Positions 5,809 to 50,110 are shown, numbered from the stretch's first letter. The stretch: 64,000 bases of DNA from an uncultured Candidatus Pelagibacter sp. (GCA_905612495.1 CAJQSF010000012.1:13147-77146); one strand, 5' to 3'. Notes: generated from the sequence alone by a model not told the origin. Translations and numbers: made by a program.

Positions 5809-5836
5809 TTGACAAAGTTAAATTAAACAGTATTTT
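5809..5836 (+). promoter_or_regulatory. Putative sigma70 promoter of the str operon
   Basis: TTGACA (5809-5814), 16 bp spacer, TATTTT (5831-5836) upstream of rpsL. Confidence 0.5.
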
Positions 5837-5842
5837 GACGAT

Positions 5843-5946
5843 GTTTTTGGTTGGAATGTAGTACCTACTTTAAGGAACTAAACGCTGCCACAAAATAACC
5901 TGTCAGTTATTTTCATTCAAAAATAAATTAATTAATTAAAAAATTT
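5843..5946 (+). promoter_or_regulatory. Putative structured rpsL 5' leader
   Basis: Long intergenic region for this genome; perfect hairpin AAAATAAC-ctgtca-GTTATTTT at 5892-5913. Confidence 0.4.
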
Positions 5947-40970: not shown

Positions 40971-42341
40971 TTGTCTAAAGTATTAAAATTAACCAAAGAT
41001 CCCATTTGGGAACTACTTAGAAAAGTAACAATTCCAGCTAGTGTTGGTTCTTTATTTCAAACATTTTATAATCTAGTTGATACTTGGTTTGCTGGTAGAA
41101 TTTCTGCTGAAGCTATAGGTGCTATCGCTAAATCATTTCCTATATATTTTGTAATAATTGCTGTTGGTGTTGGTATTGGTGCTGCAACAAACTCATGCAT
41201 TGGTAATTTATTAGGTGCAAAACAAGATAATAAAGCATCATTGTTAATCGCTCAATCTGTAATCTTTGCACTGATTATTTCTGTTGTTGTCACATTGTTT
41301 GGATTAAATGCATCTAATTTTCTTCTAACAGTAATGGGCTCTGATGCAGCTAGTATAGTTTTAACAAGAGAATATTTAGATATAATTTTTTATGGTACTT
41401 TCATTGTAATGATTCAAATCTCTTTAAATGGAGCCTTGAATGCTCAAGGAGATACTAAAAGTTATAGAAATGTTTTAATATTTAGCTTCTTTTTAAACAT
41501 ATTTTTAAATCCATTATTTATATGGGGATATGGAATTGTTCCAGCTTATGGTATAGGTGGTCTTGCTATAGCAACTGTAATTGCACAGTCCGTAGGTACT
41601 TTTTATTTAGCGTATAAAATCTACGCATGTAAATTGAAAAAGTATCTATCAATTAAATGCTTTATTCCTAAATTAATATTATTAAAAGAATTATTCACGC
41701 AAGCGTTACCTATTATGATTAGCATGCTGTTTATTGGTGTAGGTATTTTTAATATTCTATATTTTATTGGTCAATTTGGTGATCTTGCAACAGCTGGTTA
41801 TGGTGCAGCCTTAAGAGTGGAGCAAGTTTTTTTATTACCAGTTATTGGATTGAACACTGCAGTACTTTCTATTGGTGGACAAAATTTTGGTGCTAAGAAT
41901 TATGATCGTATAAGAGAATTATATTCTAAAGCTCTATTATTCGGATCATCTTTTATGGCTATAGCAGGTGTTATATTATTTTTTGGTGCAGAGTTTTTTG
42001 TATCTCAATTTACAGATAACCAAGAAGCTATATTTCATGGTGCTATATATTTAAGAATAGCTGCATTAATTGCGCCTGTTTACCCTGTGTTTTTTATAAC
42101 TACAGCTGTATTCCAAGCTGTTAAGAAACCTATCTATAGTCTTTATTTAAGTGTTTTAAGGTTATCAGCTTTACCTTTCTTGTCTCTTTGGTATGTAATT
42201 AATATTAAAGGTGGGGATTACTCGGATATATTCTACACTATAATGGTAACCAATTGGTTTATAGGTATTGTAGTAATTATATTCATTGGATATTTTTTAA
42301 ATAATGTTTTTAAACAAAAAAAAAATCATTTTAGTTATTAG
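40971..42341 (+). CDS. MATE-family efflux transporter
   Basis: YNLVDTWFAG, GDTK, LNPLFI, GQNFGA; about 12 TM. Confidence 0.93.
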   Translation: MSKVLKLTKDPIWELLRKVTIPASVGSLFQTFYNLVDTWFAGRISAEAIGAIAKSFPIYFVIIAVGVGIGAATNSCIGNLLGAKQDNKASLLIAQSVIFALIISVVVTLFGLNASNFLLTVMGSDAASIVLTREYLDIIFYGTFIVMIQISLNGALNAQGDTKSYRNVLIFSFFLNIFLNPLFIWGYGIVPAYGIGGLAIATVIAQSVGTFYLAYKIYACKLKKYLSIKCFIPKLILLKELFTQALPIMISMLFIGVGIFNILYFIGQFGDLATAGYGAALRVEQVFLLPVIGLNTAVLSIGGQNFGAKNYDRIRELYSKALLFGSSFMAIAGVILFFGAEFFVSQFTDNQEAIFHGAIYLRIAALIAPVYPVFFITTAVFQAVKKPIYSLYLSVLRLSALPFLSLWYVINIKGGDYSDIFYTIMVTNWFIGIVVIIFIGYFLNNVFKQKKNHFSY

Positions 42342-42789
42342 TGTTTCTTCACTAATATTTTTCATAATTTTTAATCAAGTCAAATCACAAGATCTTAGAG
42401 TTGTAGATGGCGACACAATTCATCTTAATGGAGAAAAAATTAGATTTACCGGAATAGATACACCTGAGTTAAAACAAACTTGCCTTAAAGAAGGTATTAA
42501 AGATCCTTGTGGAGTTAAAGCAAAACAAATCCTAAATAATAAAATTGGAAAAAATGATGTTGAGTGTATTAGTGAGGGAATTGATAAATACAAAAGAACA
42601 TTAGCTGAATGTTTTGTAAATAATGAAAGTCTATCGAGCTATTTAGTTAGAAGTGGCTATGCATTTGCTTACAGAAGATATTCAAAAAAGTTTGTACAAG
42701 ATGAGGATTATGCAAGAATCAATAAAATAGGCATGTGGTCTATGGAGTTTGATTATCCTTGGGATTATAGAAAATCTAAAAAGAATTAA
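42304..42789 (+). CDS. Thermonuclease (SNase) family exported nuclease
   Basis: N-terminal hydrophobic segment; VVDGDT, IRFTGIDTPE, DKYKRTLA. Confidence 0.92.
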   Translation: MFLNKKKIILVISVSSLIFFIIFNQVKSQDLRVVDGDTIHLNGEKIRFTGIDTPELKQTCLKEGIKDPCGVKAKQILNNKIGKNDVECISEGIDKYKRTLAECFVNNESLSSYLVRSGYAFAYRRYSKKFVQDEDYARINKIGMWSMEFDYPWDYRKSKKN

Positions 42790-42797
42790 AGCTATAT

Positions 42798-42937
42798 GGG
42801 GCGTTCTGTTACCCGGTGCCCCAGACCGTGCTTCTATAATCCTTATTTTGCAACAGGGTTGCCTTAGCAAATAGCAGAAGTTTCAACTAAATTACACCCG
42901 TATTACGCCCAGCATTTTAGTGCTAGGGTACCGGTTC
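42798..42937 (+). repeat. Junction repeat R1 (core plus right arm only; left boundary)
   Basis: 38-bp core at 42798-42835; right arm ATAATCCTTATTTTGCAACAGGGTTG...GCAAATAGCAGAAGTTT; no left arm. Confidence 0.95.
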
Positions 42938-43891
42938 ATGAAAAAGATTTTAGGGATCCTAGTTCTGGGTTTGTTGTGGTGCAATGCTTTACCAGCCAAA
43001 ATTCTTAATATAGAAAACAAAATACAAATAGAGGTTCCATCTAGTCATAAGTTTATCAAATATGACAATGAAGAGGTAAGAGAGTCTATTGATGAATTTA
43101 CAGATTCTATAGACGGAATGGAGATAGATCTCTATCTAGTTGGTCCTAGCAAATATGTGGATTTTGAAAAAGCAATGATGGATGGAGAAGATCCAATGGA
43201 TAATGAATACGTAAAAGCAATAATGAAAAAATTAGAAAAAAAAAATTTTCAAAACGAAGATAAGGCTCTGAAATGGATTATCTCTGAATCAAAAAAAATA
43301 ATGAAAAAGGAGAAGATTGACTTCATCACATATATACTTATTTCAAATAAAACTCTGATAGAAATGCTACCAAATGATGATGAAATTGTTGATATGTTAA
43401 CAGAGCTTCAATCAATGAATAATTCAGAGTTAATTCAACAAACAAAAGAAATTAAAAAAGAGATAGCAACTTTGGAAGGTGCTAATAAACAAAGGATTTT
43501 AGCCGGACCTACTTCATTTACATATAATAAGTTTAAAATTGCAAAAAATGAATATGGAAATTTATTTTTAAAAGGTCCCAGTAAATTTTTTATGGCAATT
43601 AATGAATACTTAACAATAGATGCAGTATTGAATGTTTATTTGGCAGAGCATAACAACAAAACTTATTTTTTTATATCAGCGTGTTACGTGAACTGTTCTA
43701 AATTTAGTAATAAATTTGATAAAATGATAAAACCTACGTTTTCAACAAATGTGCAAACTCAAAAATCAAAAAGTAGTTTGTCTGGTGATAGTAATTTAAC
43801 TGAACAGTTAAAAGCTTTAAGTGAACTATATAAATCTGGAGCTTTAACTAAAGAAGAGTTTACAAAAGCAAAAAAGAAACTTTTAAACTAA
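42938..43891 (+). CDS. Exported hypothetical protein with C-terminal SHOCT-like domain (cassette 1)
   Basis: MKKILGILVLGLLWCNA signal peptide (ATG 42938); ends LKALSELYKSGALTKEEFTKAKKKLLN. Confidence 0.85.
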   Translation: MKKILGILVLGLLWCNALPAKILNIENKIQIEVPSSHKFIKYDNEEVRESIDEFTDSIDGMEIDLYLVGPSKYVDFEKAMMDGEDPMDNEYVKAIMKKLEKKNFQNEDKALKWIISESKKIMKKEKIDFITYILISNKTLIEMLPNDDEIVDMLTELQSMNNSELIQQTKEIKKEIATLEGANKQRILAGPTSFTYNKFKIAKNEYGNLFLKGPSKFFMAINEYLTIDAVLNVYLAEHNNKTYFFISACYVNCSKFSNKFDKMIKPTFSTNVQTQKSKSSLSGDSNLTEQLKALSELYKSGALTKEEFTKAKKKLLN

Positions 43892-44108
43892 AAATTACGC
43901 CCAGAGTACGCTCAAAAATAATCCAAACACCAATCAGCATTATAGATAAAGAATGGATTAGTTATTAAGGGGCGTTCTGTTACCCGTTGCCCCAGACCGT
44001 GCTTCTATAATCCTTATTTTGGAACGATGTTGAAACACTGAAAGCCAGAAGTTGTTACTGAATTGTGCCACTATTGTGCCAAGGATTATTGTGCTAGGAT
44101 CAGGGTTC
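43892..44108 (+). repeat. Junction repeat R2 (left arm, core, right arm)
   Basis: Core at 43969-44006 with 1 mismatch to R1; left arm AAACACCAATCAGCATTATAGATAAAG; TTGTGCCA direct repeats at 44063-44081. Confidence 0.95.
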
Positions 44109-45341
44109 ATGAAAAAACTTTTAGGGATCATCATTCTTGGTTTGTTGTTAAGTGGGAACGCTTATGCAGATGTTAATGAACCTGGAGTAACGTCTATTGC
44201 AGGGTGTGATAGTGGTCTTAAATCGGTAAACCAAAAATTTATAAAAAAACATTTAAAAAAATTATCAAAAAAAAATGAAACTAGTGTTCTCTATGCCAGT
44301 TGTGATTATGATAATTATTCTTGGGCAGTTAATAAAGGCAAGGACTTAGAAAAACTTCATAAGAAAACATATAAACAATGTACGAAATATGCCGAGAAAC
44401 ATACGGGCAAAGAATGTTATTTGTATGCAGTTAATGAAGAAATTGTTTGGAAATACGACAAGGCTAAAGCATCCACCATAGCAAAAACTAAAATAGCAGA
44501 AGCAAGTGTGTTAATAGAAAAAAAAAAAGAATTAGATAAGAAACCAGGAAGATTTTTTGAAGATCAACCTGATGTAAGTGATGATTTTCAATTCCATTTA
44601 ATTTATTTTTTAGACAATAAAACTAAAGATAAGGAAAGAGATATATCTGGATATATTGAGAAAGAAATGAAAAAAGCTGATGATGCTTTTTTTAAAATGA
44701 CTAAAAACAAACAAAGATTTAAGTTTGATTATAGAGAAGATGGAAAACTAGATGTGACTTTCGTTAGAATGGATAGAAAAGCAAGAAGTGGTGGATGGAA
44801 TGTAAATTATCCAGATTATTATCTAACAAAAAATGGTTTTAATAACCCTAAAAAAATGTATTTATCTTTTACCGACTCTGCTAGCGGAGATGGGGGACAA
44901 ATGGGCCCACATCATGGGTATATTTTTATAGGTAAAGCAGGCTCTCAGTATCCTCAAATTATAATTCATGAAATGCTGCACGGTTTAGGTTTTGCTATGC
45001 CTTGCACAATAGGAGTACAAGATGGAGCCCACATGGGTTCTGGAATTTTAGCACGGGGTGGAGGATTACAACTTCCAAAAGCACTTTATGGTCATGATGA
45101 TTCAACATGTCCAGATTTAAAAGACTCTGTTTATTTAACCCCAACATCAGACAACCCTTTTGATCCTCTACCTATTGCATGTGCTTTAGGACAAATGAAA
45201 AGAGGCAGTCCCCCAGGTAATTTTGAAATTCCTGCTAGATACACCCATAAAAAACTACTCAAAGGTAGAAAGAATGAGTGGTGTACATATAATGTCCATA
45301 CTTATGCTAAAGATGATTGGTTTAAACAGTGGAAAAAATAA
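44109..45341 (+). CDS. Exported putative zinc metallopeptidase (cassette 2, gene 1)
   Basis: MKKLLGIIILGLLLSGNAYA signal peptide (ATG 44109); Cys-containing N-domain; HEMLHGLG (HExxH) at 44967-44981. Confidence 0.75.
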   Translation: MKKLLGIIILGLLLSGNAYADVNEPGVTSIAGCDSGLKSVNQKFIKKHLKKLSKKNETSVLYASCDYDNYSWAVNKGKDLEKLHKKTYKQCTKYAEKHTGKECYLYAVNEEIVWKYDKAKASTIAKTKIAEASVLIEKKKELDKKPGRFFEDQPDVSDDFQFHLIYFLDNKTKDKERDISGYIEKEMKKADDAFFKMTKNKQRFKFDYREDGKLDVTFVRMDRKARSGGWNVNYPDYYLTKNGFNNPKKMYLSFTDSASGDGGQMGPHHGYIFIGKAGSQYPQIIIHEMLHGLGFAMPCTIGVQDGAHMGSGILARGGGLQLPKALYGHDDSTCPDLKDSVYLTPTSDNPFDPLPIACALGQMKRGSPPGNFEIPARYTHKKLLKGRKNEWCTYNVHTYAKDDWFKQWKK

Positions 45342-46326
45342 TCTTAATTATTATATCTTTATTTCTAATAACTAATGCTTTTGCAGACGAATGTTATACT
45401 TCATCTTTAGACACAACACCTGTAATTCTTGAGTCAGATAAAAAACCTGGTAGGTTTTTTTTAGATCAGCCAGATGTCAATGATGATTATCAAATTCATA
45501 TTGTTTACTCACTTTTAAAAGACTCTAAAGATAAAGAAGGAGACATTAATGGAGCTATAGAAAAATGGATAGAAGCATCTGATAAATATATTTTAAAAAC
45601 TACAAAAAAAGCAAATGAAAAATCTGATTTTAAAAATGGTATAGCTCAAAACATAAAATGGGACAGAAGAAAGGATGGAAAATTAGATATTAGCTTTATT
45701 AGAATAAATAAGACTAAAAAAGAAGTAAAAAAATCCCCCTCAGGAAGTTGTGGAAATGTTTTTGGCAGAACAATAGTTAATGCAGGATTTAATAACCCTA
45801 AAAAAATTTATTTTAATTTTGGAGATTATTCTTTTAAAGAATGGCCTTACTCTGGTGGTTTTCCAATATTTAGTATATTCAATAAACATCAAAAAAAATA
45901 CCCTCTTAAAAAAGTGAATTCGGATATTTTGTTTTACATGAGGTTATTCATGCAATGGGAGGTATTTTTACCTGTTCACCAAAATATACTAAATATGTAC
46001 ATAATACAAAAAAAACTAGTGATTTGATGAGTAGTGATGGTGACGGTAGAAACAATACATTGGACCCAAAGAATGATGACTATTGGGGTCATAATAATAA
46101 AAGTTGTCCGGATATGCAAGACAGTGTTTACTTTACACCAACATCAGATACTCCTTTTGACCCTTTTGAAGTCACATGTTTGCCAAAAGAAAAATGGAAA
46201 TTTACAAAACATGATTATAAAAATATTAAAGATATAAGAGGTACTGGTGAAATGTGCTTTTATAAACGTAGAGATGTTTCAGCCCCGTGGGAAAATGAAC
46301 TTGGAATATTTCGGAAATTTAATTAA
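45329..46326 (+). pseudogene. Frameshifted paralog of the upstream HExxH peptidase (cassette 2, gene 2)
   Basis: ORFs 45329-46027 and 45955-46326 each align to 44109-45341 (DKKPGRFFxDQPDV; CPDxxDSVYxTPTSDxPFDP); one extra A in the A6 run at 45908-45913 fuses them and restores HEVIH. Confidence 0.8.
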
Positions 46327-46334
46327 AAAAATTA

Positions 46335-47327
46335 ATGAAAAAACTTTTAGGGATCGTGGTTCTGAGTTTGTTACTGAGTAGTAATGTTTATTCTAAAACA
46401 ATAGTGGTTAAAGCTAATCCAGAAAAAGGTTTTAATTTTCCTTATTTGTTAAAAACTTCAAAAAAAACTTCAGATGCAAAATATTTAATTGTTGAGTCAA
46501 ATAACACTGGTAACGGTAAATCAATAAAAGATATGACTAGTAAAGCTAAAAAGTCTCTAGGTTGGGTTTTGGGTTCTGATATTGCAAAAAAATTAAATTT
46601 TCCTTTATTAATGCCTGTTTTTCCATTCGCTACTAAAGAAATTGAAAAAGATCTACCCAATTTAAAATGGCATTATTATTTTCCACAATTAGATAGCGAC
46701 ACTATAAAAATAAATAATAATAAATACAAAAGAATTGATTTGCAGTTAATTGCCATGATTGACGATGCAAGAGAAAGATTGTTGAAAGAAAATAATCAAA
46801 GTATAAATGAAAAGGTTATTTTTACTGGTTTTTCATCATCCTCTTTATTTGCAGCAAGATTTACTTTTTTAAATCCAGACAGAGTATCAGTTGCAGTTGG
46901 TGGAGGAATAGGAGGTTTGCTACCTGTTCCAGCTGATAAAATTGATGGAATTGAAACTATATACCCTATTGGAACGTATGATTTTGTAAAAATTACTGGA
47001 AAAAAATTTAATCTAGAAGAATACAAAAATACACCTCAATTTTACTGGCAAGGAACAAAAGATAAATCAAATCCATTTAGGAAAGGTGCTGAAGATTTAA
47101 CAGATAAAGAGTTTGGAATAGTAAAAAAACTTTTTGTAGATGGGCTACCTTTTGCATCAAGTCCTGTTTCTTTAGAAGTTAATACTGTGATGTGGAAAAA
47201 TTCTCAAAAATATATAAATCAAATTGTAGATAATGTTAAATTTGAAAGCCCAAAAAACTTAGGACATCAAATAGATAATAAAATGCTTCTTAAAAGTGCA
47301 AAATTCATAAAAGAAAACTTAAATTAG
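46335..47327 (+). CDS. Exported alpha/beta-hydrolase-like protein (cassette 2, gene 3)
   Basis: MKKLLGIVVLSLLLSSNVYS signal peptide; FTGFSSSS nucleophile-elbow-like motif, GTKD, C-terminal GH. Confidence 0.6.
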   Translation: MKKLLGIVVLSLLLSSNVYSKTIVVKANPEKGFNFPYLLKTSKKTSDAKYLIVESNNTGNGKSIKDMTSKAKKSLGWVLGSDIAKKLNFPLLMPVFPFATKEIEKDLPNLKWHYYFPQLDSDTIKINNNKYKRIDLQLIAMIDDARERLLKENNQSINEKVIFTGFSSSSLFAARFTFLNPDRVSVAVGGGIGGLLPVPADKIDGIETIYPIGTYDFVKITGKKFNLEEYKNTPQFYWQGTKDKSNPFRKGAEDLTDKEFGIVKKLFVDGLPFASSPVSLEVNTVMWKNSQKYINQIVDNVKFESPKNLGHQIDNKMLLKSAKFIKENLN

Positions 47328-47339
47328 GATTAATTTATA

Positions 47340-47555
47340 AATTGTGCCACTAGTGTGCCAAAGGTCTACTTAAGGAATAATCATCATCATATATAAAGAT
47401 AAGTAGGTGAGTATGAAGGGGCGTTCTGTTACCCGGTGCCCTGGACCGTGCTTCTATAAACCTAATTTTGTAACAAAGTTGCTACAACTTAACCTAGAAA
47501 CTATATAAAGTTCTATACAGATTGTATGTTGATTTTGTGCTAAGTTTTTTAATTC
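47340..47555 (+). repeat. Junction repeat R3
   Basis: Core at 47418-47455 with 2 mismatches to R1; left arm begins AATTGTGCCACTAGTGTGCCA. Confidence 0.95.
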
Positions 47556-48173
47556 ATGAAAAATGTTTTAGGAATTATATTTTTTATCTTATTTTGCAAC
47601 CTTGCATCTGCAGCAGACAAATATGAAGGTGCAGGTGAATTAAAACTCGGTGATCCTGATATTAATGTATTTATGGATTACATAAAACCTCCTGCTGGTC
47701 AAGTACCAATGATATTTTTAGTATTGTCAGAAAATGGTAAAGCTATCTGGTCAACTTACTGGTATTGTCCTGAAGGTAACTGTCAAACATTAAACAAAAA
47801 CCGAGCATCTATTATGTGCACTCAAGATGCAGAGAAATTTTATGAGAGAACGATTACTGAAGAATGCAAAATTTTTGCAAGAAGAAGAACTATCGTTTGG
47901 AAAAATGGAATAAATACTGGAAAAGGTAAAGTTTCTAGAGTTAAAAGTAGATGGAAAAAAAATGAGGTTATGGCGAAATTAGAAGAACTTGGTTTTCTAG
48001 GTAACAGCACATCATCAATCGATACTACTAAACCTAAAATTACTGAGAAGAAAAAAGAAAATAAGAAATCAGATGATATTGCTAGCCAAATAAATAGTCT
48101 AAAAAAGTTGTTAGATGATGGTGTTATTTCAAAAGAAGAATTTAAGAAAGCTAAAAAAAAAATATTAAATTAG
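47556..48173 (+). CDS. Exported Cys-containing hypothetical protein with SHOCT-like tail (cassette 3, gene 1)
   Basis: MKNVLGIIFF..ASA signal peptide; ECKIFARRRTIVWK; ends LKKLLDDGVISKEEFKKAKKKILN. Confidence 0.85.
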   Translation: MKNVLGIIFFILFCNLASAADKYEGAGELKLGDPDINVFMDYIKPPAGQVPMIFLVLSENGKAIWSTYWYCPEGNCQTLNKNRASIMCTQDAEKFYERTITEECKIFARRRTIVWKNGINTGKGKVSRVKSRWKKNEVMAKLEELGFLGNSTSSIDTTKPKITEKKKENKKSDDIASQINSLKKLLDDGVISKEEFKKAKKKILN

Positions 48174-48174
48174 T

Positions 48175-49116
48175 TTGAAAAAAATTTTAATAATAATATT
48201 ATTTAGTTCCTTGATTTCCACAATCGTAAATTCAGATATTAAACAAAGATATTCAATAGGAGAAAAAATTACTAATGAGGTTATTTTAGATAATAAAATA
48301 AGTATTGATTTGAGTGATGGCGTATGGGAAGTTGTTGAAAGAACAGGATGGAGATGGGGCAACTATACAGGAGAATATATTTTTATAATCAAAGCTAATG
48401 AAAAGGAAATTGTCGAAAGTATATCGCTTAGTTTTTTAAATACAGGTGGCAAGAGAATAGCAGATGTAAATTCATGGTTATATGAAGTTGTATTTGTAAA
48501 TAAACACGACGGATGTTACAAAAGACCTGAGTATTACAAGTTAGAATTGTTTCACAAAGGAGCAACAATAAATTGCATGATAATATCTCACACAGATATC
48601 AATAAAGAGATTTATAATCCAGATGATAAAGAGTTTGCTTATCTAAATGAAAAAATAGTTAGTTGGATTCATGAAAATTCAATAGAGTTACCTAAGATTA
48701 TGCTTACATCTGAGCATATTTTTTTTTCAAGGTCGGCATCTTCAAAGTTTTATGGTTATTCACACTCTATAAACCCTAAATTTTTTGAAGGTCCAAAAAC
48801 AAAATTTATAACAGAAGATACAAGTGAATATCATCCATTTAATATAGACAAATATCCTATACATGAAAAATTTATGAATAACTTTATGTCATCACAGTCA
48901 TTAATACATGTAAGTTTAGAAGAAAATATAGGAATTAAAGATTATCAAAAACTTGAATTGTCAAAATATATAAACAAAAAAACTGAAACTAAAAAATCTA
49001 ATGGTACAGATAAAGGTGATATTGTTAGTCAGATAAAAGACTTAAAAGAGTTATTAGATACTGGTGTAATAACACAAGATGAATTTGTTAAGGCAAAGAA
49101 GAAAATTTTAAATTAA
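48175..49116 (+). CDS. Exported hypothetical protein with SHOCT-like tail (cassette 3, gene 2)
   Basis: TTG start, MKKILIIILFSS signal peptide; ends LKELLDTGVITQDEFVKAKKKILN. Confidence 0.85.
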   Translation: MKKILIIILFSSLISTIVNSDIKQRYSIGEKITNEVILDNKISIDLSDGVWEVVERTGWRWGNYTGEYIFIIKANEKEIVESISLSFLNTGGKRIADVNSWLYEVVFVNKHDGCYKRPEYYKLELFHKGATINCMIISHTDINKEIYNPDDKEFAYLNEKIVSWIHENSIELPKIMLTSEHIFFSRSASSKFYGYSHSINPKFFEGPKTKFITEDTSEYHPFNIDKYPIHEKFMNNFMSSQSLIHVSLEENIGIKDYQKLELSKYINKKTETKKSNGTDKGDIVSQIKDLKELLDTGVITQDEFVKAKKKILN

Positions 49117-49310
49117 AAATTTTGAGCTATGTGCGAACAAATGTAACTCAAAGAATAATCAACATTATAAATAAAGAGAAGTAGAAGAGTGTGTAGGGGC
49201 GTTCTGTTACCCGGTGCCCCAGACCGTGCTTCTGTAATCCTAATTTTGTAACAAAGTTGCTTTCGCAAATAGCAGAAGTTTGGGCTGAATTACGGATTGA
49301 TTGTGGATCA
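49117..49310 (+). repeat. Junction repeat R4
   Basis: Core at 49196-49233 identical to R1; right arm shares GCAAATAGCAGAAGTTT with R1. Confidence 0.95.
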
Positions 49311-49362
49311 ACTATCTTATTATAAACTTGATAACCAGCTATTAAAAATGTATCTATAAATT

Positions 49363-49728
49363 ATGTTAAAGACTTTCATCGCAATACTTTCTTTAGCTGC
49401 ACTTGTTTCTTGTGCTTCTATTGTTAATGATCCAACTGTGCCTGTTACACTATCTTTTAGTGATGGTAGCAGCGGAAACTGTAAGTTAACTAATAAACGT
49501 GCAGCTTATAACGTTGAAGTTCCAGGTACAAATATGATCAGAAGATCAGACGATCCATTAAGATATGATTGCGTAACAAATTCTGGCAAAAAAGGATATG
49601 GAAGCATACCAAGCGAAATAGAAGGCGCAAAATTAGCTGGAAGCGTTCTAATAGACTTTGGAATCACCGACTCAATTACGGACAAACATAGAACCTATAC
49701 TCCTAACTTTGTAGTACCTATAAAATAA
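49363..49728 (+). CDS. Small hypothetical lipoprotein (cassette 4)
   Basis: MLKTFIAILSLAALVS-C lipobox-like signal. Confidence 0.8.
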   Translation: MLKTFIAILSLAALVSCASIVNDPTVPVTLSFSDGSSGNCKLTNKRAAYNVEVPGTNMIRRSDDPLRYDCVTNSGKKGYGSIPSEIEGAKLAGSVLIDFGITDSITDKHRTYTPNFVVPIK

Positions 49729-49833
49729 AATTAGGGCTGTGCTACGTATAAAAGCAATTTAAACACCAATCAGCATTATAAATAAAGAAAAGTAGGAGAG
49801 TTGTAAGGGGCGTTCTGTTACCCGGTACCCCAG
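49729..49833 (+). repeat. Junction repeat R5 (left arm plus truncated core; right boundary)
   Basis: AAACACCAATCAGCATTATAAATAAAG arm, then 27 bp of core (49807-49833, 1 mismatch), then unrelated sequence. Confidence 0.92.
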
Positions 49834-49849
49834 CTTTCTAATTAATCTT

Positions 49850-50110
49850 TTATTTGATAGTTTTGAATAGTCTTTCACCCAAAGGACTGACTGGGTCTTG
49901 AGGTGTAGGTTCAATATTAGTTTTTTCTTCAACAATACTTAATAGCTTTTTAGCAAGTCCTTTACGCCTGAAGATTGGATTAACGAAAATATACTCAACT
50001 TCAGCCTGTTTATTATATCTAACAAAACCAAGTGTAGTATTAATATTTTTAAATGTAACAACACCGTCACTAAACGAAATATCATAGTTTGTGCTATTTA
50101 ATTCATTCAT
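49850..50110 (-). CDS. Small GNAT-family acetyltransferase-like protein
   Basis: IFVNPIFRRKGLAKKLL acetyl-CoA-binding motif A. Confidence 0.75.
   Translation of the reverse strand: MNELNSTNYDISFSDGVVTFKNINTTLGFVRYNKQAEVEYIFVNPIFRRKGLAKKLLSIVEEKTNIEPTPQDPVSPLGERLFKTIK

What the first reader, a model, noticed from the sequence alone, without database searches (positions are those of the whole stretch)
42836..49806. Arms co-vary by cassette, so each unit's two ends appear to travel together
Seen: cassette 2 has AATTGTGCCACTATTGTGCCA near its left end (44061) and AATTGTGCCACTAGTGTGCCA near its right end (47340). Cassette 1 has AATTACACCCGTATTACGCCCAG (42890) and AATTACGCCCAGAGTACGCTCA (43893). 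The left-end repeats begin exactly 92 bp after the core start in R1, R2 and R4, and the right-end ones 76-78 bp before the next core. Cassettes 1 and 4 share both end types (GCAAATAGCAGAAGTTT on the left, AAACACCAATCAGCATTATA on the right). Established: short tandem direct repeats on both sides of a core are typical arm-type sites of lambda-family tyrosine integrases. Inference: crossover occurs in the core, and different cassettes derive from or are served by different integrase variants sharing one core.
Basis: partly seen in the sequence, partly recalled or inferred. Interest (0 to 1): 0.8.

Follow-up and report, generated by a model that had tools for sequence, protein, structure and literature searches.

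The report
Integrase-less SAR11 cassettes with coded arms
A SAR11 (Pelagibacter) chromosome carries a row of small gene cassettes without a recombinase; each is bounded by a copy of the tmRNA gene's 3' end and by its own pair of matching short repeats, which match the docking sites of integrases carried by small satellite-like elements, so this may be one way the ocean's most abundant bacterium swaps genes.

Summary

- **Core:** the 27-nt core, plus 16 more bases, is the reverse complement of the 3' end of the genome's own permuted tmRNA gene (ssrA), which lies on another contig.
- **Site:** the array sits at a secondary site between an SNase gene and a GNAT gene. A relative has this site empty, with the core only.
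- **Arms:** in 49 non-redundant cassettes from Pelagibacter genomes and marine metagenomes, arm similarity is high within a cassette (13.0 against 7.5 for permuted pairs, z = 13). Across the core it is at background (7.25).
- **Arm structure:** each arm is two 7-mers 11 bp apart. There are about 20 arm types.
- **Integrases:** a family of 331-349 aa tyrosine integrases sits on small satellite-like elements (integrase, primase/helicase, small terminase; wrap-around contigs). These carry the same core flanked by the same kind of arms.
- **Matches:** about 10 arm types are shared with integrase-less cassettes. Integrase residues 1-32 track arm type; residues 61-160 do not.

Binding and mobilisation in trans are untested, and no cognate integrase was found for this window's own arm types.

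The parts
42304..42789 (+). Chromosomal left flank: staphylococcal-nuclease-like gene
   Evidence: Pfam PF00565, E 2e-18. The same gene flanks the site in G351, G041, G253 and G219.
42798..42840 (+). R1: 27-nt core (42798-42824) plus 16 nt. Together these 43 nt equal the reverse complement of the ssrA 3' end. R1 is the attL-like junction: chromosome on the left, cassette on the right.
   Evidence: ssrA itself lies at G000:C35 (Rfam RF01849, 223 bits).
42890..42912 (+). Cassette 1 left (P') arm: TACACCC and TACGCCC at an 11-bp period
42938..43891 (+). Cassette 1 cargo: protein with a signal-peptide-like N-terminus and a SHOCT C-terminal domain
   Evidence: PF09851. The signal peptide is read from the sequence, not predicted by a tool.
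43893..43914 (+). Cassette 1 right (P) arm: TACGCCC and TACGCTC, starting 76 bp before R2
43969..43995 (+). R2 core (attP-like junction: cassette frames on both sides)
44061..44081 (+). Cassette 2 left arm: TGTGCCA twice
44109..47327 (+). Cassette 2 cargo, three parts. First, a protein of about 410 aa from the ATG at 44109 (the listed ORF, 44052-45341, is 429 aa from an upstream TTG), with an HExxH motif seen by eye. Second, a paralogue split across two frames (45329-46027 and 45955-46326). Third, a 330-aa protein with a weak Abhydrolase_2 hit.
   Evidence: (repeats D6, D13, D15)
47340..47360 (+). Cassette 2 right arm: TGTGCCA twice, starting 78 bp before R3
47418..47444 (+). R3 core
47519..47542 (+). 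Cassette 3 left arm candidate (weak; offset +101)
   Evidence: the score is not above the null
47556..49116 (+). Cassette 3 cargo: two SHOCT-domain proteins (47556-48173 and 48175-49116)
49118..49139 (+). Cassette 3 right arm candidate (weak)
49196..49222 (+). R4 core
49288..49310 (+). Cassette 4 left arm: TACGGAT and TGTGGAT, offset +92
49363..49728 (+). Cassette 4 cargo: 121-aa protein with no Pfam match and a lipoprotein-like N-terminus seen by eye
49729..49750 (+). Cassette 4 right arm (degenerate; does not match the left arm above chance)
49807..49833 (+). R5: core only (attR-like junction: cassette on the left, chromosome on the right)
49850..50110 (-). Chromosomal right flank: short GNAT acetyltransferase ORF
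   Evidence: The same flank is present in G351, G041 and G219.

Best explanation
The window holds a tandem array of four integrase-less integrative cassettes. Each cassette, once circularised, would carry an attP-like site of about 190 bp. That site has three parts: a right (P) arm; about 55 bp of conserved frame followed by a 27-bp core copied from the 3' end of the tmRNA gene; and about 65 bp of conserved frame followed by a left (P') arm.

Each arm is two 7-mers spaced 11 bp apart, which puts them on one face of the helix. The arms are arm-type binding sites for the N-terminal domain of heterobivalent (lambda/HP1/P2-like) tyrosine integrases. These integrases are encoded elsewhere, on small satellite-like episomes of about 4.6-6.5 kb and on islands at ssrA that use the same core.

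Many integrase lineages share the core specificity but differ in their N-terminal strands and in their arm 7-mer. A cassette can be recombined only by an integrase whose N-domain reads its arms, so its two ends must match.

Shown here: strand exchange lies within the 27-bp core; arms are linked by cassette; integrase-bearing elements have the same architecture; and arm type changes with the integrase N-domain. Inferred: physical binding, mobilisation in trans, and that matching arms are kept by selection for mobility.
For: 1. The core is the ssrA 3' end. The 43 nt at 42798-42840 are the reverse complement of the end of the genome's own tmRNA gene (L006:1497-1797, RF01849, 223 bits).

2. Junction anatomy fits site-specific integration. 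R1 has a chromosomal left flank and R5 a chromosomal right flank. The same site is empty, with the core only, in G219. The same cassettes sit directly at ssrA in G041, G146 and G351.

3. Arms are linked across the cassette. For 49 cassettes the within-cassette score is 13.0 against 7.55 +/- 0.42 in 10,000 permutations (none reached 13.0). Across 65 cores the score is 7.25 (Mann-Whitney p = 1e-9). Of 85 cassettes, 34 have concordant tandem 7-mers at both ends, giving about 20 arm types.

4. Integrase-bearing elements carry the same core and matched arms. Examples are the 14-kb island of G176 with AACGTCC at both ends and the wrap-around contigs of P0020, P0092, P0099, P0109, P0064, P0070, P0088, P0105, P0107 and P0013.

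5. Stretches of 22-24 nt of arm are identical between such elements and integrase-less cassettes although the surrounding frames differ. TCCTACT occurs in element L276 and cassette L124, and TACGACC in element L287 and cassette L044.

6. Identity in integrase residues 1-32 tracks arm identity (Spearman 0.42; Mantel 0 of 5000). Residues 61-160 do not (0.14; 845 of 5000). P0092 and P0088 are 93% identical over residues 61-160 but differ in the N-terminal strands and in arm type.

7. The predicted N-domain is three strands plus a helix, with pLDDT 82-88 over residues 1-40. Variable positions cluster in residues 3-16 and 20-32.

8. The catalytic domain matches PF00589 and is nearest to the HP1 integrase structure 1aih. 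The positions I read as the catalytic R, K, H, R, H and Y are invariant in the three-sequence alignment.
Against: - No DNA binding or recombination was measured.
- No integrase with this window's own arm types (TACGCCC, TGTGCCA) was found among the 18 integrase/attP pairs sampled, out of at least 793 homologues.
- The window's genome (63% complete) holds no integrase of this family.
- Cassettes 3 and 4 here, and roughly a third or more of cassettes elsewhere, have non-matching arms.
- Fold searches with the N-domain were inconclusive (AP2 domain Z 4.3, lambda Int N-domain Z 3.8, tied with unrelated folds).
- The P' arm lies at +92 in cassettes but at about +106 to +108 in integrase-bearing elements, so the geometry is not identical.
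- The N-domain correlation rests on 16 sequences, some of them near-duplicates.
Confidence: 0.8

Rival explanations
1. The cassettes are inert relics. Each is what remains of an integrase-bearing island after internal deletion. Its two arms match only because they descend from one parent element. They are no longer recognised or moved by anything.
For: Integrases of this family are rare in genomes: 4 of 401 genomes of the genus at E <= 1e-60, and none in this genome. Many cassettes have mismatched or degenerate arms.
Against: Cassettes share their own conserved frame (72-73% identity over 40-48 nt even between cassettes with different arms). That frame differs from the frames of integrase-bearing elements, yet the arms are identical to those elements over 22-24 nt. 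One 60-aa lipoprotein mini-cassette occurs with two different arm sets, both ends changed together. Related cargo occurs in different arrays with different neighbours. Independent decay would not keep four 7-mer copies alike.
Confidence: 0.12
2. The repeats are expression signals: operator or -35-like elements upstream, and a matching element after the stop codon. A regulator reads them, not a recombinase.
For: The left arm lies just upstream of a TGnTAGGAT-like extended -10 element and about 30-50 bp from the start codon.
Against: The same tandem 7-mers flank the core in integrase-bearing elements, where the P arm lies at the integrase start and not after a cargo gene. They co-vary with the integrase N-domain. 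The cassettes encode no DNA-binding protein detectable with Pfam.
Confidence: 0.04
3. Another recombination system moves the cassettes: either an integron-type system (IntI acting on folded attC sites) or Xer recombinases acting on dif-like sites.
For: The array of promoter-bearing, recombinase-less cassettes looks integron-like, and Xer-type recombinases are the only ones common in SAR11 genomes (bioRxiv 10.64898/2026.10.07.757358).
Against: No integrase gene lies next to the array. The arms are direct repeats, not inverted ones. To my knowledge of dif sites, the G+C-rich core looks unlike one (not compared with a tool). A dedicated integrase family with the same core exists.
Confidence: 0.02

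Closest known systems
Lambda/HP1/P2-type heterobivalent tyrosine integrase systems (attP = arm sites + core)
   Same: Short core identity between attP and attB. Tandem direct-repeat arm sites on both sides of the core at helical-turn spacing. An integrase with a separate N-terminal domain ahead of the PF00589 catalytic domain. The catalytic domain is nearest to the HP1 integrase structure.
   Different: Here many arm specificities share one core, and the elements studied carry no integrase at all. The attP is about 190 bp. Accessory-factor sites are not identified.
Genomic islands and prophages integrating at tmRNA/tRNA genes, including tandem arrays (Williams 2002, Nucleic Acids Res 30:866, as cited in the papers read; tRNA/tmRNA-linked SAR11 islands in PMC11796062)
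   Same: The core is the 3' end of ssrA. Each integration leaves a partial repeat of the gene. Relatives have cassettes directly at ssrA.
   Different: This window's array is not at ssrA. It lies at a 27-bp look-alike between two protein genes. The units are 0.4-3.5 kb, with one to a few genes and no mobility gene.
VEIMEs, virion-encapsidated integrative mobile elements / marine phage satellites associated with Pelagibacter (Eppley et al. 2022, PMC9618062); tycheposons of Prochlorococcus (bioRxiv 10.1101/2020.12.28.424599)
   Same: The integrase-bearing partners found here have an integrase, a primase/helicase (AAA_25, DUF5906 or Prim-Pol) and a small terminase on contigs in which the gene order repeats. 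The G176 island has an HNH endonuclease and a trypsin-like protease, as described for Pelagibacter module 2.
   Different: The window's cassettes have none of these genes. In the passages I searched in those papers, I found no description of arm repeats, the ssrA-derived core at secondary sites, or integrase-less mini-cassettes matched to integrase N-domains.
Integron gene cassettes, and cis-mobilisable elements (CIMEs) that are moved by a related element's integrase (both from general knowledge)
   Same: Arrays of small units without a recombinase, each carrying its own recombination site, presumably served in trans.
   Different: No IntI or attI. The sites are double-stranded lambda-type attP with direct-repeat arms, not folded attC hairpins. 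Cassettes carry their own promoter-like signals. The arm sequence would restrict each cassette to one integrase lineage.

Membership tests
Heterobivalent (arm-binding) tyrosine integrase att system | Tyrosine recombinase with an intact catalytic set | tested here: met
   PF00589 at E 7.5e-21. R199, K224, H277, R280, H303 and Y312 are invariant in alignment A2; I assign these as the catalytic residues by their sequence context. This applies to the partner elements. The window itself encodes no such integrase.
Heterobivalent (arm-binding) tyrosine integrase att system | Separate N-terminal arm-binding domain (three-stranded sheet plus helix) | tested here: inconclusive
   The AF2 model gives strands 2-7, 10-15 and 23-27 and a helix 30-46, with pLDDT 82-88 over residues 1-40. 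Fold matches are weak: AP2 domain 2gcc Z 4.3 and lambda Int 1z1b residues 14-70 Z 3.8, tied with unrelated folds.
Heterobivalent (arm-binding) tyrosine integrase att system | Arm-type sites, different in sequence from the core, on both sides of the core | tested here: met
   Tandem 7-mers at an 11-bp period lie about 55-78 bp left and 92-108 bp right of the core, in cassettes and in integrase-bearing elements.
Heterobivalent (arm-binding) tyrosine integrase att system | Arm sequence specified by the integrase N-domain | tested here: met
   Correlation with residues 1-32 (Spearman 0.42; Mantel 0 of 5000) but not with residues 61-160. The sample is small (16 sequences) and this is sequence covariation only.
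Heterobivalent (arm-binding) tyrosine integrase att system | Physical binding of the integrase to the arms, and arm-dependent recombination | not testable with these tools
   Needs EMSA and recombination assays.
tmRNA-gene-targeting integrative elements | attP core identical to the 3' end of ssrA | tested here: met
   43-nt identity to the genome's own ssrA.
tmRNA-gene-targeting integrative elements | Integrated at the ssrA gene | tested here: not met
   The window's array lies between the SNase and GNAT genes, and ssrA is on contig C35. The feature is met for homologous cassettes in G041, G146 and G351.
Integron | IntI gene and attI next to the array; attC sites made of imperfect inverted repeats | tested here: not met
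   No recombinase lies in or next to the array. The arms are direct repeats.
Phage satellite / VEIME | Integrase plus replication and packaging-hijack genes on a unit of about 5-15 kb | tested here: not met
   The window's cassettes hold only cargo with signal-peptide-like N-termini. The feature is met for the integrase-bearing partners.
Xer/dif-exploiting elements | dif-like 28-bp XerC/XerD site at the junctions | not tested
   The junction core is the G+C-rich ssrA hairpin sequence. By my knowledge of dif sites it looks unlike one, but it was not compared with a dif model.

The most novel reading that the evidence does not exclude
SAR11 populations run an arm-coded cassette exchange system. 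A large pool of integrase-less cassettes, each tagged with one of at least 20 arm codes, is inserted and excised at ssrA and at ssrA look-alike sites around the chromosome. The work is done by a panel of satellite-borne integrases that share one core specificity, and fast-evolving N-terminal strands set which cassettes each integrase can move. This would make phage satellites a main driver of the small flexible-gene cassettes of the ocean's most abundant bacterium.
Probability: 0.45. Interest if true: 0.85.

Novelty: new variant of a known kind. Interest (0 to 1): 0.75.

Why it matters
SAR11 genomes are streamlined and almost free of recognisable mobile elements, yet their flexible genes sit as small cassettes at recurrent positions. 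Recent work states that the mechanism is unresolved (bioRxiv 10.64898/2026.10.07.757358; PMC11796062).

The evidence here points to a concrete, testable mechanism for at least one class of these cassettes. They carry lambda-type attachment sites served in trans by integrases of Pelagibacter-associated satellite elements. The tmRNA 3' end acts as a common address, and cassette-specific arms act as a second code.

The results also offer a natural series of integrase N-domains paired with their DNA words. That series is useful for studying how arm-binding specificity evolves.

Tried and rejected
- **IMG/VR scan for the core.** The 8 hits are whole tmRNA genes of another type on viral contigs, not attP sites.
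- **The search for related loci with the integrase alignment on viral contigs.** It returned only distant relatives (26-29% identity), so that collection does not hold this family.
- **Integrases of the window's own genome.** One is Xer-like (334 aa, contig C4). The other is a 425-aa integrase beside tRNA-Leu(TAG) on contig C42, a different island and a different target. Neither explains the array.
- **phmmer of those two recombinases against all ORFs of 229 fetched loci.** It gave a single weak hit, L213, which turned out to be the lead to the right integrase family.
- **Foldseek against PDB and VIA-align wide with the N-domain model.** No match was strong enough to assign the fold.
- **My guess that His in the KKGHP motif marks TACG-type arms.** It failed: P0013 has KKGHP but TCCGCCA arms.
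- **Other readings considered and dropped.** Target-site duplication and MITE-like readings predict linkage across the core, or no internal tandem structure, and neither is seen. A guide-RNA reading has no recombinase or RNA to support it.


Full report
**1. What is in the window**

The region 42798-49833 holds five copies, all on the + strand, of a core that begins GGGGCGTTCTGTTACCCG. The first four are followed by a conserved right-hand frame. The last four are preceded by a conserved left-hand frame (alignment A1).

R1 has an SNase-family gene on its left. R5 is followed after 27 nt by unrelated sequence and a short GNAT ORF on the minus strand. This is the anatomy of four units inserted in tandem by site-specific recombination within a 27-bp core.

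The four units encode only proteins with signal-peptide-like N-termini, and three of these proteins carry a SHOCT C-terminal domain. No recombinase gene lies in or next to the array.

**2. What the core is**

A sixth copy of the core lies on another contig of the same genome. There it forms the 3' end of the permuted alphaproteobacterial tmRNA gene (RF01849, 223 bits; ARAGORN tag peptide ANESYAIAA).

The first 43 nt of R1 are identical to the reverse complement of the ssrA 3' end. So the cassettes carry a piece of ssrA as their crossover site, as islands that target tRNA or tmRNA genes do. This array, however, is not at ssrA.

In complete genomes of the same genus the core occurs at several places:
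- at ssrA itself, either empty (G271) or holding a cassette (G041, G146, G351);
- at the SNase|GNAT site, empty with the core only (G219), with one cassette (G351) or with two (G041);
- at two or more further sites.

**3. Test of the arm observation**

I collected junctions from 20 regions of complete genomes, 46 genome contigs and 120 metagenome contigs. This gave 90 non-redundant cassettes.

Each arm is two 7-mers spaced 11 bp apart, usually preceded by ATT. The 7-mer differs between cassettes. Examples are TACGACC, TACGATC, TGCGACG, CCCGACA, TCCGCCA, TGTGCCA, TACGAGT, TCCGTGT, TGTGACT, TCCTACT and GTGTACC.

| Comparison | Sample | Mean ungapped local score |
|---|---|---|
| Left arm against right arm of the same cassette | 49 canonical cassettes | 13.0 |
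| Permuted pairings | 10,000 permutations | 7.55 +/- 0.42 (none reached 13.0) |
| The two arms flanking one core | 65 junctions | 7.25 (Mann-Whitney p = 1e-9 against within-cassette) |

The arms flanking one core belong to neighbouring cassettes, and they score at background.

Of 85 cassettes of at least 390 bp, 68 show a tandem 7-mer at one or both ends and 49 show one at both ends. Thirty-four are concordant, giving about 20 types.

Within the window, cassettes 1 and 2 carry the signal (93rd and 99.3rd percentile). Cassettes 3 and 4 do not.

**4. Cargo and arms are separable**

A 404-bp mini-cassette encoding a 60-aa lipoprotein-like ORF occurs with TCCGCCA-type arms in one contig and TACGATC arms in two others. 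The ORF is nearly unchanged between them, while both arms and the adjoining frame differ together.

Homologues of cassette 1's gene occur with other left arms. Roughly a third or more of cassettes, mostly the longer ones, have non-matching ends. These look like fusions or recombinants.

Between cassettes with different arms the frames next to the core are still 72-73% identical. The arms are therefore the variable, concerted part of an otherwise conserved site.

**5. The integrases**

A weak phmmer hit led to a 348-aa PF00589 protein on a metagenome contig, starting 56 bp from a core. GGGCGAC-type tandem repeats lie on both sides of that core.

Relatives occur in 38 of 401 family genomes. Subgroups lie beside ssrA or beside tRNA-Met, tRNA-Ser, tRNA-Arg or tRNA-Val, each with its own tandem repeats upstream of the integrase gene.

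In G176 the integrase closes a 14-kb island at ssrA, bounded by two cores, with AACGTCC arms at both ends. The island carries an HNH endonuclease and a trypsin-like protease.

Close relatives are rare in genomes of the genus (4 of 401). They are abundant in metagenomes (793 homologues at E <= 1e-30).

Twelve look-ups of encoding contigs show the gene on units of about 4.6-6.5 kb. In several contigs the gene order repeats, which indicates a circle or concatemer, or tandem integrated copies. These units also carry a primase/helicase (AAA_25, DUF5906 or Prim-Pol) and often a small terminase.

This gene set matches the Pelagibacter-associated virion-encapsidated integrative mobile elements described by Eppley et al. 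(PMC9618062).

In every case the core lies just upstream of the integrase gene and is flanked by tandem 7-mers of one type.

About 10 arm types are shared with integrase-less cassettes. In two cases 22-24 identical nucleotides lie within otherwise different frames: TCCTACT (element L276 and cassette L124) and TACGACC (element L287 and cassette L044).

**6. Link between integrase and arms**

In the alignment of 16 integrases, the N-terminal 32 residues differ wherever the arms differ and agree where the arms agree.
- P0064 and P0088 both have TGTACCT arms.
- L235 and P0109 both have GACGCC arms.
- P0092 and P0088 are 93% identical over residues 61-160, yet they differ in the N-terminal strands and in arm type.

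Arm identity correlates with identity in residues 1-32 (Spearman 0.42; Mantel 0 of 5000). It does not correlate with residues 61-160 (0.14; 845 of 5000).

Across 63 homologues the variable positions cluster in residues 3-16 and 20-32, around an invariant scaffold.

AlphaFold predicts three strands followed by a helix, which is the topology of lambda and Tn916 integrase arm-binding domains and of AP2 domains. The fold searches were too weak to prove this.

The catalytic domain is nearest to the HP1 integrase.

**7. Reading**

The arms are best explained as arm-type integrase sites. The cassettes are best explained as integrase-less riders on a family of satellite-borne integrases that share the ssrA core but have diversified in arm specificity.

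Shown:
- the origin of the core;
- crossover within the core;
- arm linkage by cassette;
- cognate integrase-bearing elements;
- covariation of the N-domain with the arms.

Inferred:
- physical binding;
- present-day mobilisation in trans;
- selection as the cause of arm matching.

The main rival is that the cassettes are immobile relics. The conserved cassette-specific frame, the concerted arm changes and the varied contexts of related cargo argue against it, but they do not exclude it.

**8. Novelty**

Integration at tmRNA genes, arm-binding integrases and marine satellites are all known. Searches of the held literature found no description of arm-type sites in Pelagibacter. A 2026 preprint calls the mechanism behind SAR11 cassettes unresolved.

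Three things appear new:
- a large family of integrase-less mini-cassettes with full lambda-type attP sites;
- their spread to ssrA look-alike sites;
- many arm codes sharing one core.

The scan's earlier notes on this stretch had already suggested the tmRNA likeness and an integron-like array. I reached the tmRNA result independently.

Noticed in passing
G000 contig C42 (L059:14365-15778; L008): A 425-aa PF00589 integrase lies directly beside tRNA-Leu(TAG) and upstream of the trigger factor gene. It is preceded by about 10 kb of small same-strand ORFs. This is likely a separate island or prophage remnant, at a tRNA gene that a preprint reports as a pelagiphage integration site (bioRxiv 10.1101/410191).
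   Followed up: partly
L039:10001-13374 (G170, Candidatus Pelagibacter sp. Uisw_113): Two full-length ssrA 3' regions lie 3347 bp apart. The left flank of the second copy resembles the P side of the TCCGATC-type integrase element (L286). This suggests an element remnant that brought or duplicated ssrA sequence.
   Followed up: no
L060-L067 (IMG/VR contigs): Eight viral contigs carry a complete permuted tmRNA gene of a different sequence type, with the same terminal hairpin. This is either phage-borne ssrA or host DNA binned as viral.
   Followed up: no
window 45329-46326: The second gene of cassette 2 is a paralogue of the first (repeats D6, D13, D15). It is split between two overlapping frames (232 aa and 123 aa), so it is a frameshifted or decaying copy.
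   Followed up: no
L278 and L290 (metagenome contigs): Two different integrase elements lie head to tail in one contig, each with its own core and matched arms (TTCGACT with TGCAACT; TACGAGT with TCCGATC). They are tandem insertions or co-integrates of elements with different arm codes.
   Followed up: partly
L265:5850-5875; L274, L291 P' sides: In integrase-bearing elements the P' tandem arm is followed within about 10 bp by an inverted copy of the same 7-mer (for example GGACGTTAT after ATAACGAC...TGACGTCC). This is a third, opposite-facing arm site that I did not see in the cassettes.
   Followed up: no
window 42921-42929, 44092-44100, 47538-47546: A TGCTAGGRT-like extended -10 motif lies just after the left arm and 10-20 bp before the start codon. 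The second 7-mer of the left arm therefore overlaps where a -35 element would lie, so integrase binding could affect cassette expression.
   Followed up: no
window 5835-5927: An rpsL sRNA (RF01823, 90 bits) is present.
   Followed up: no
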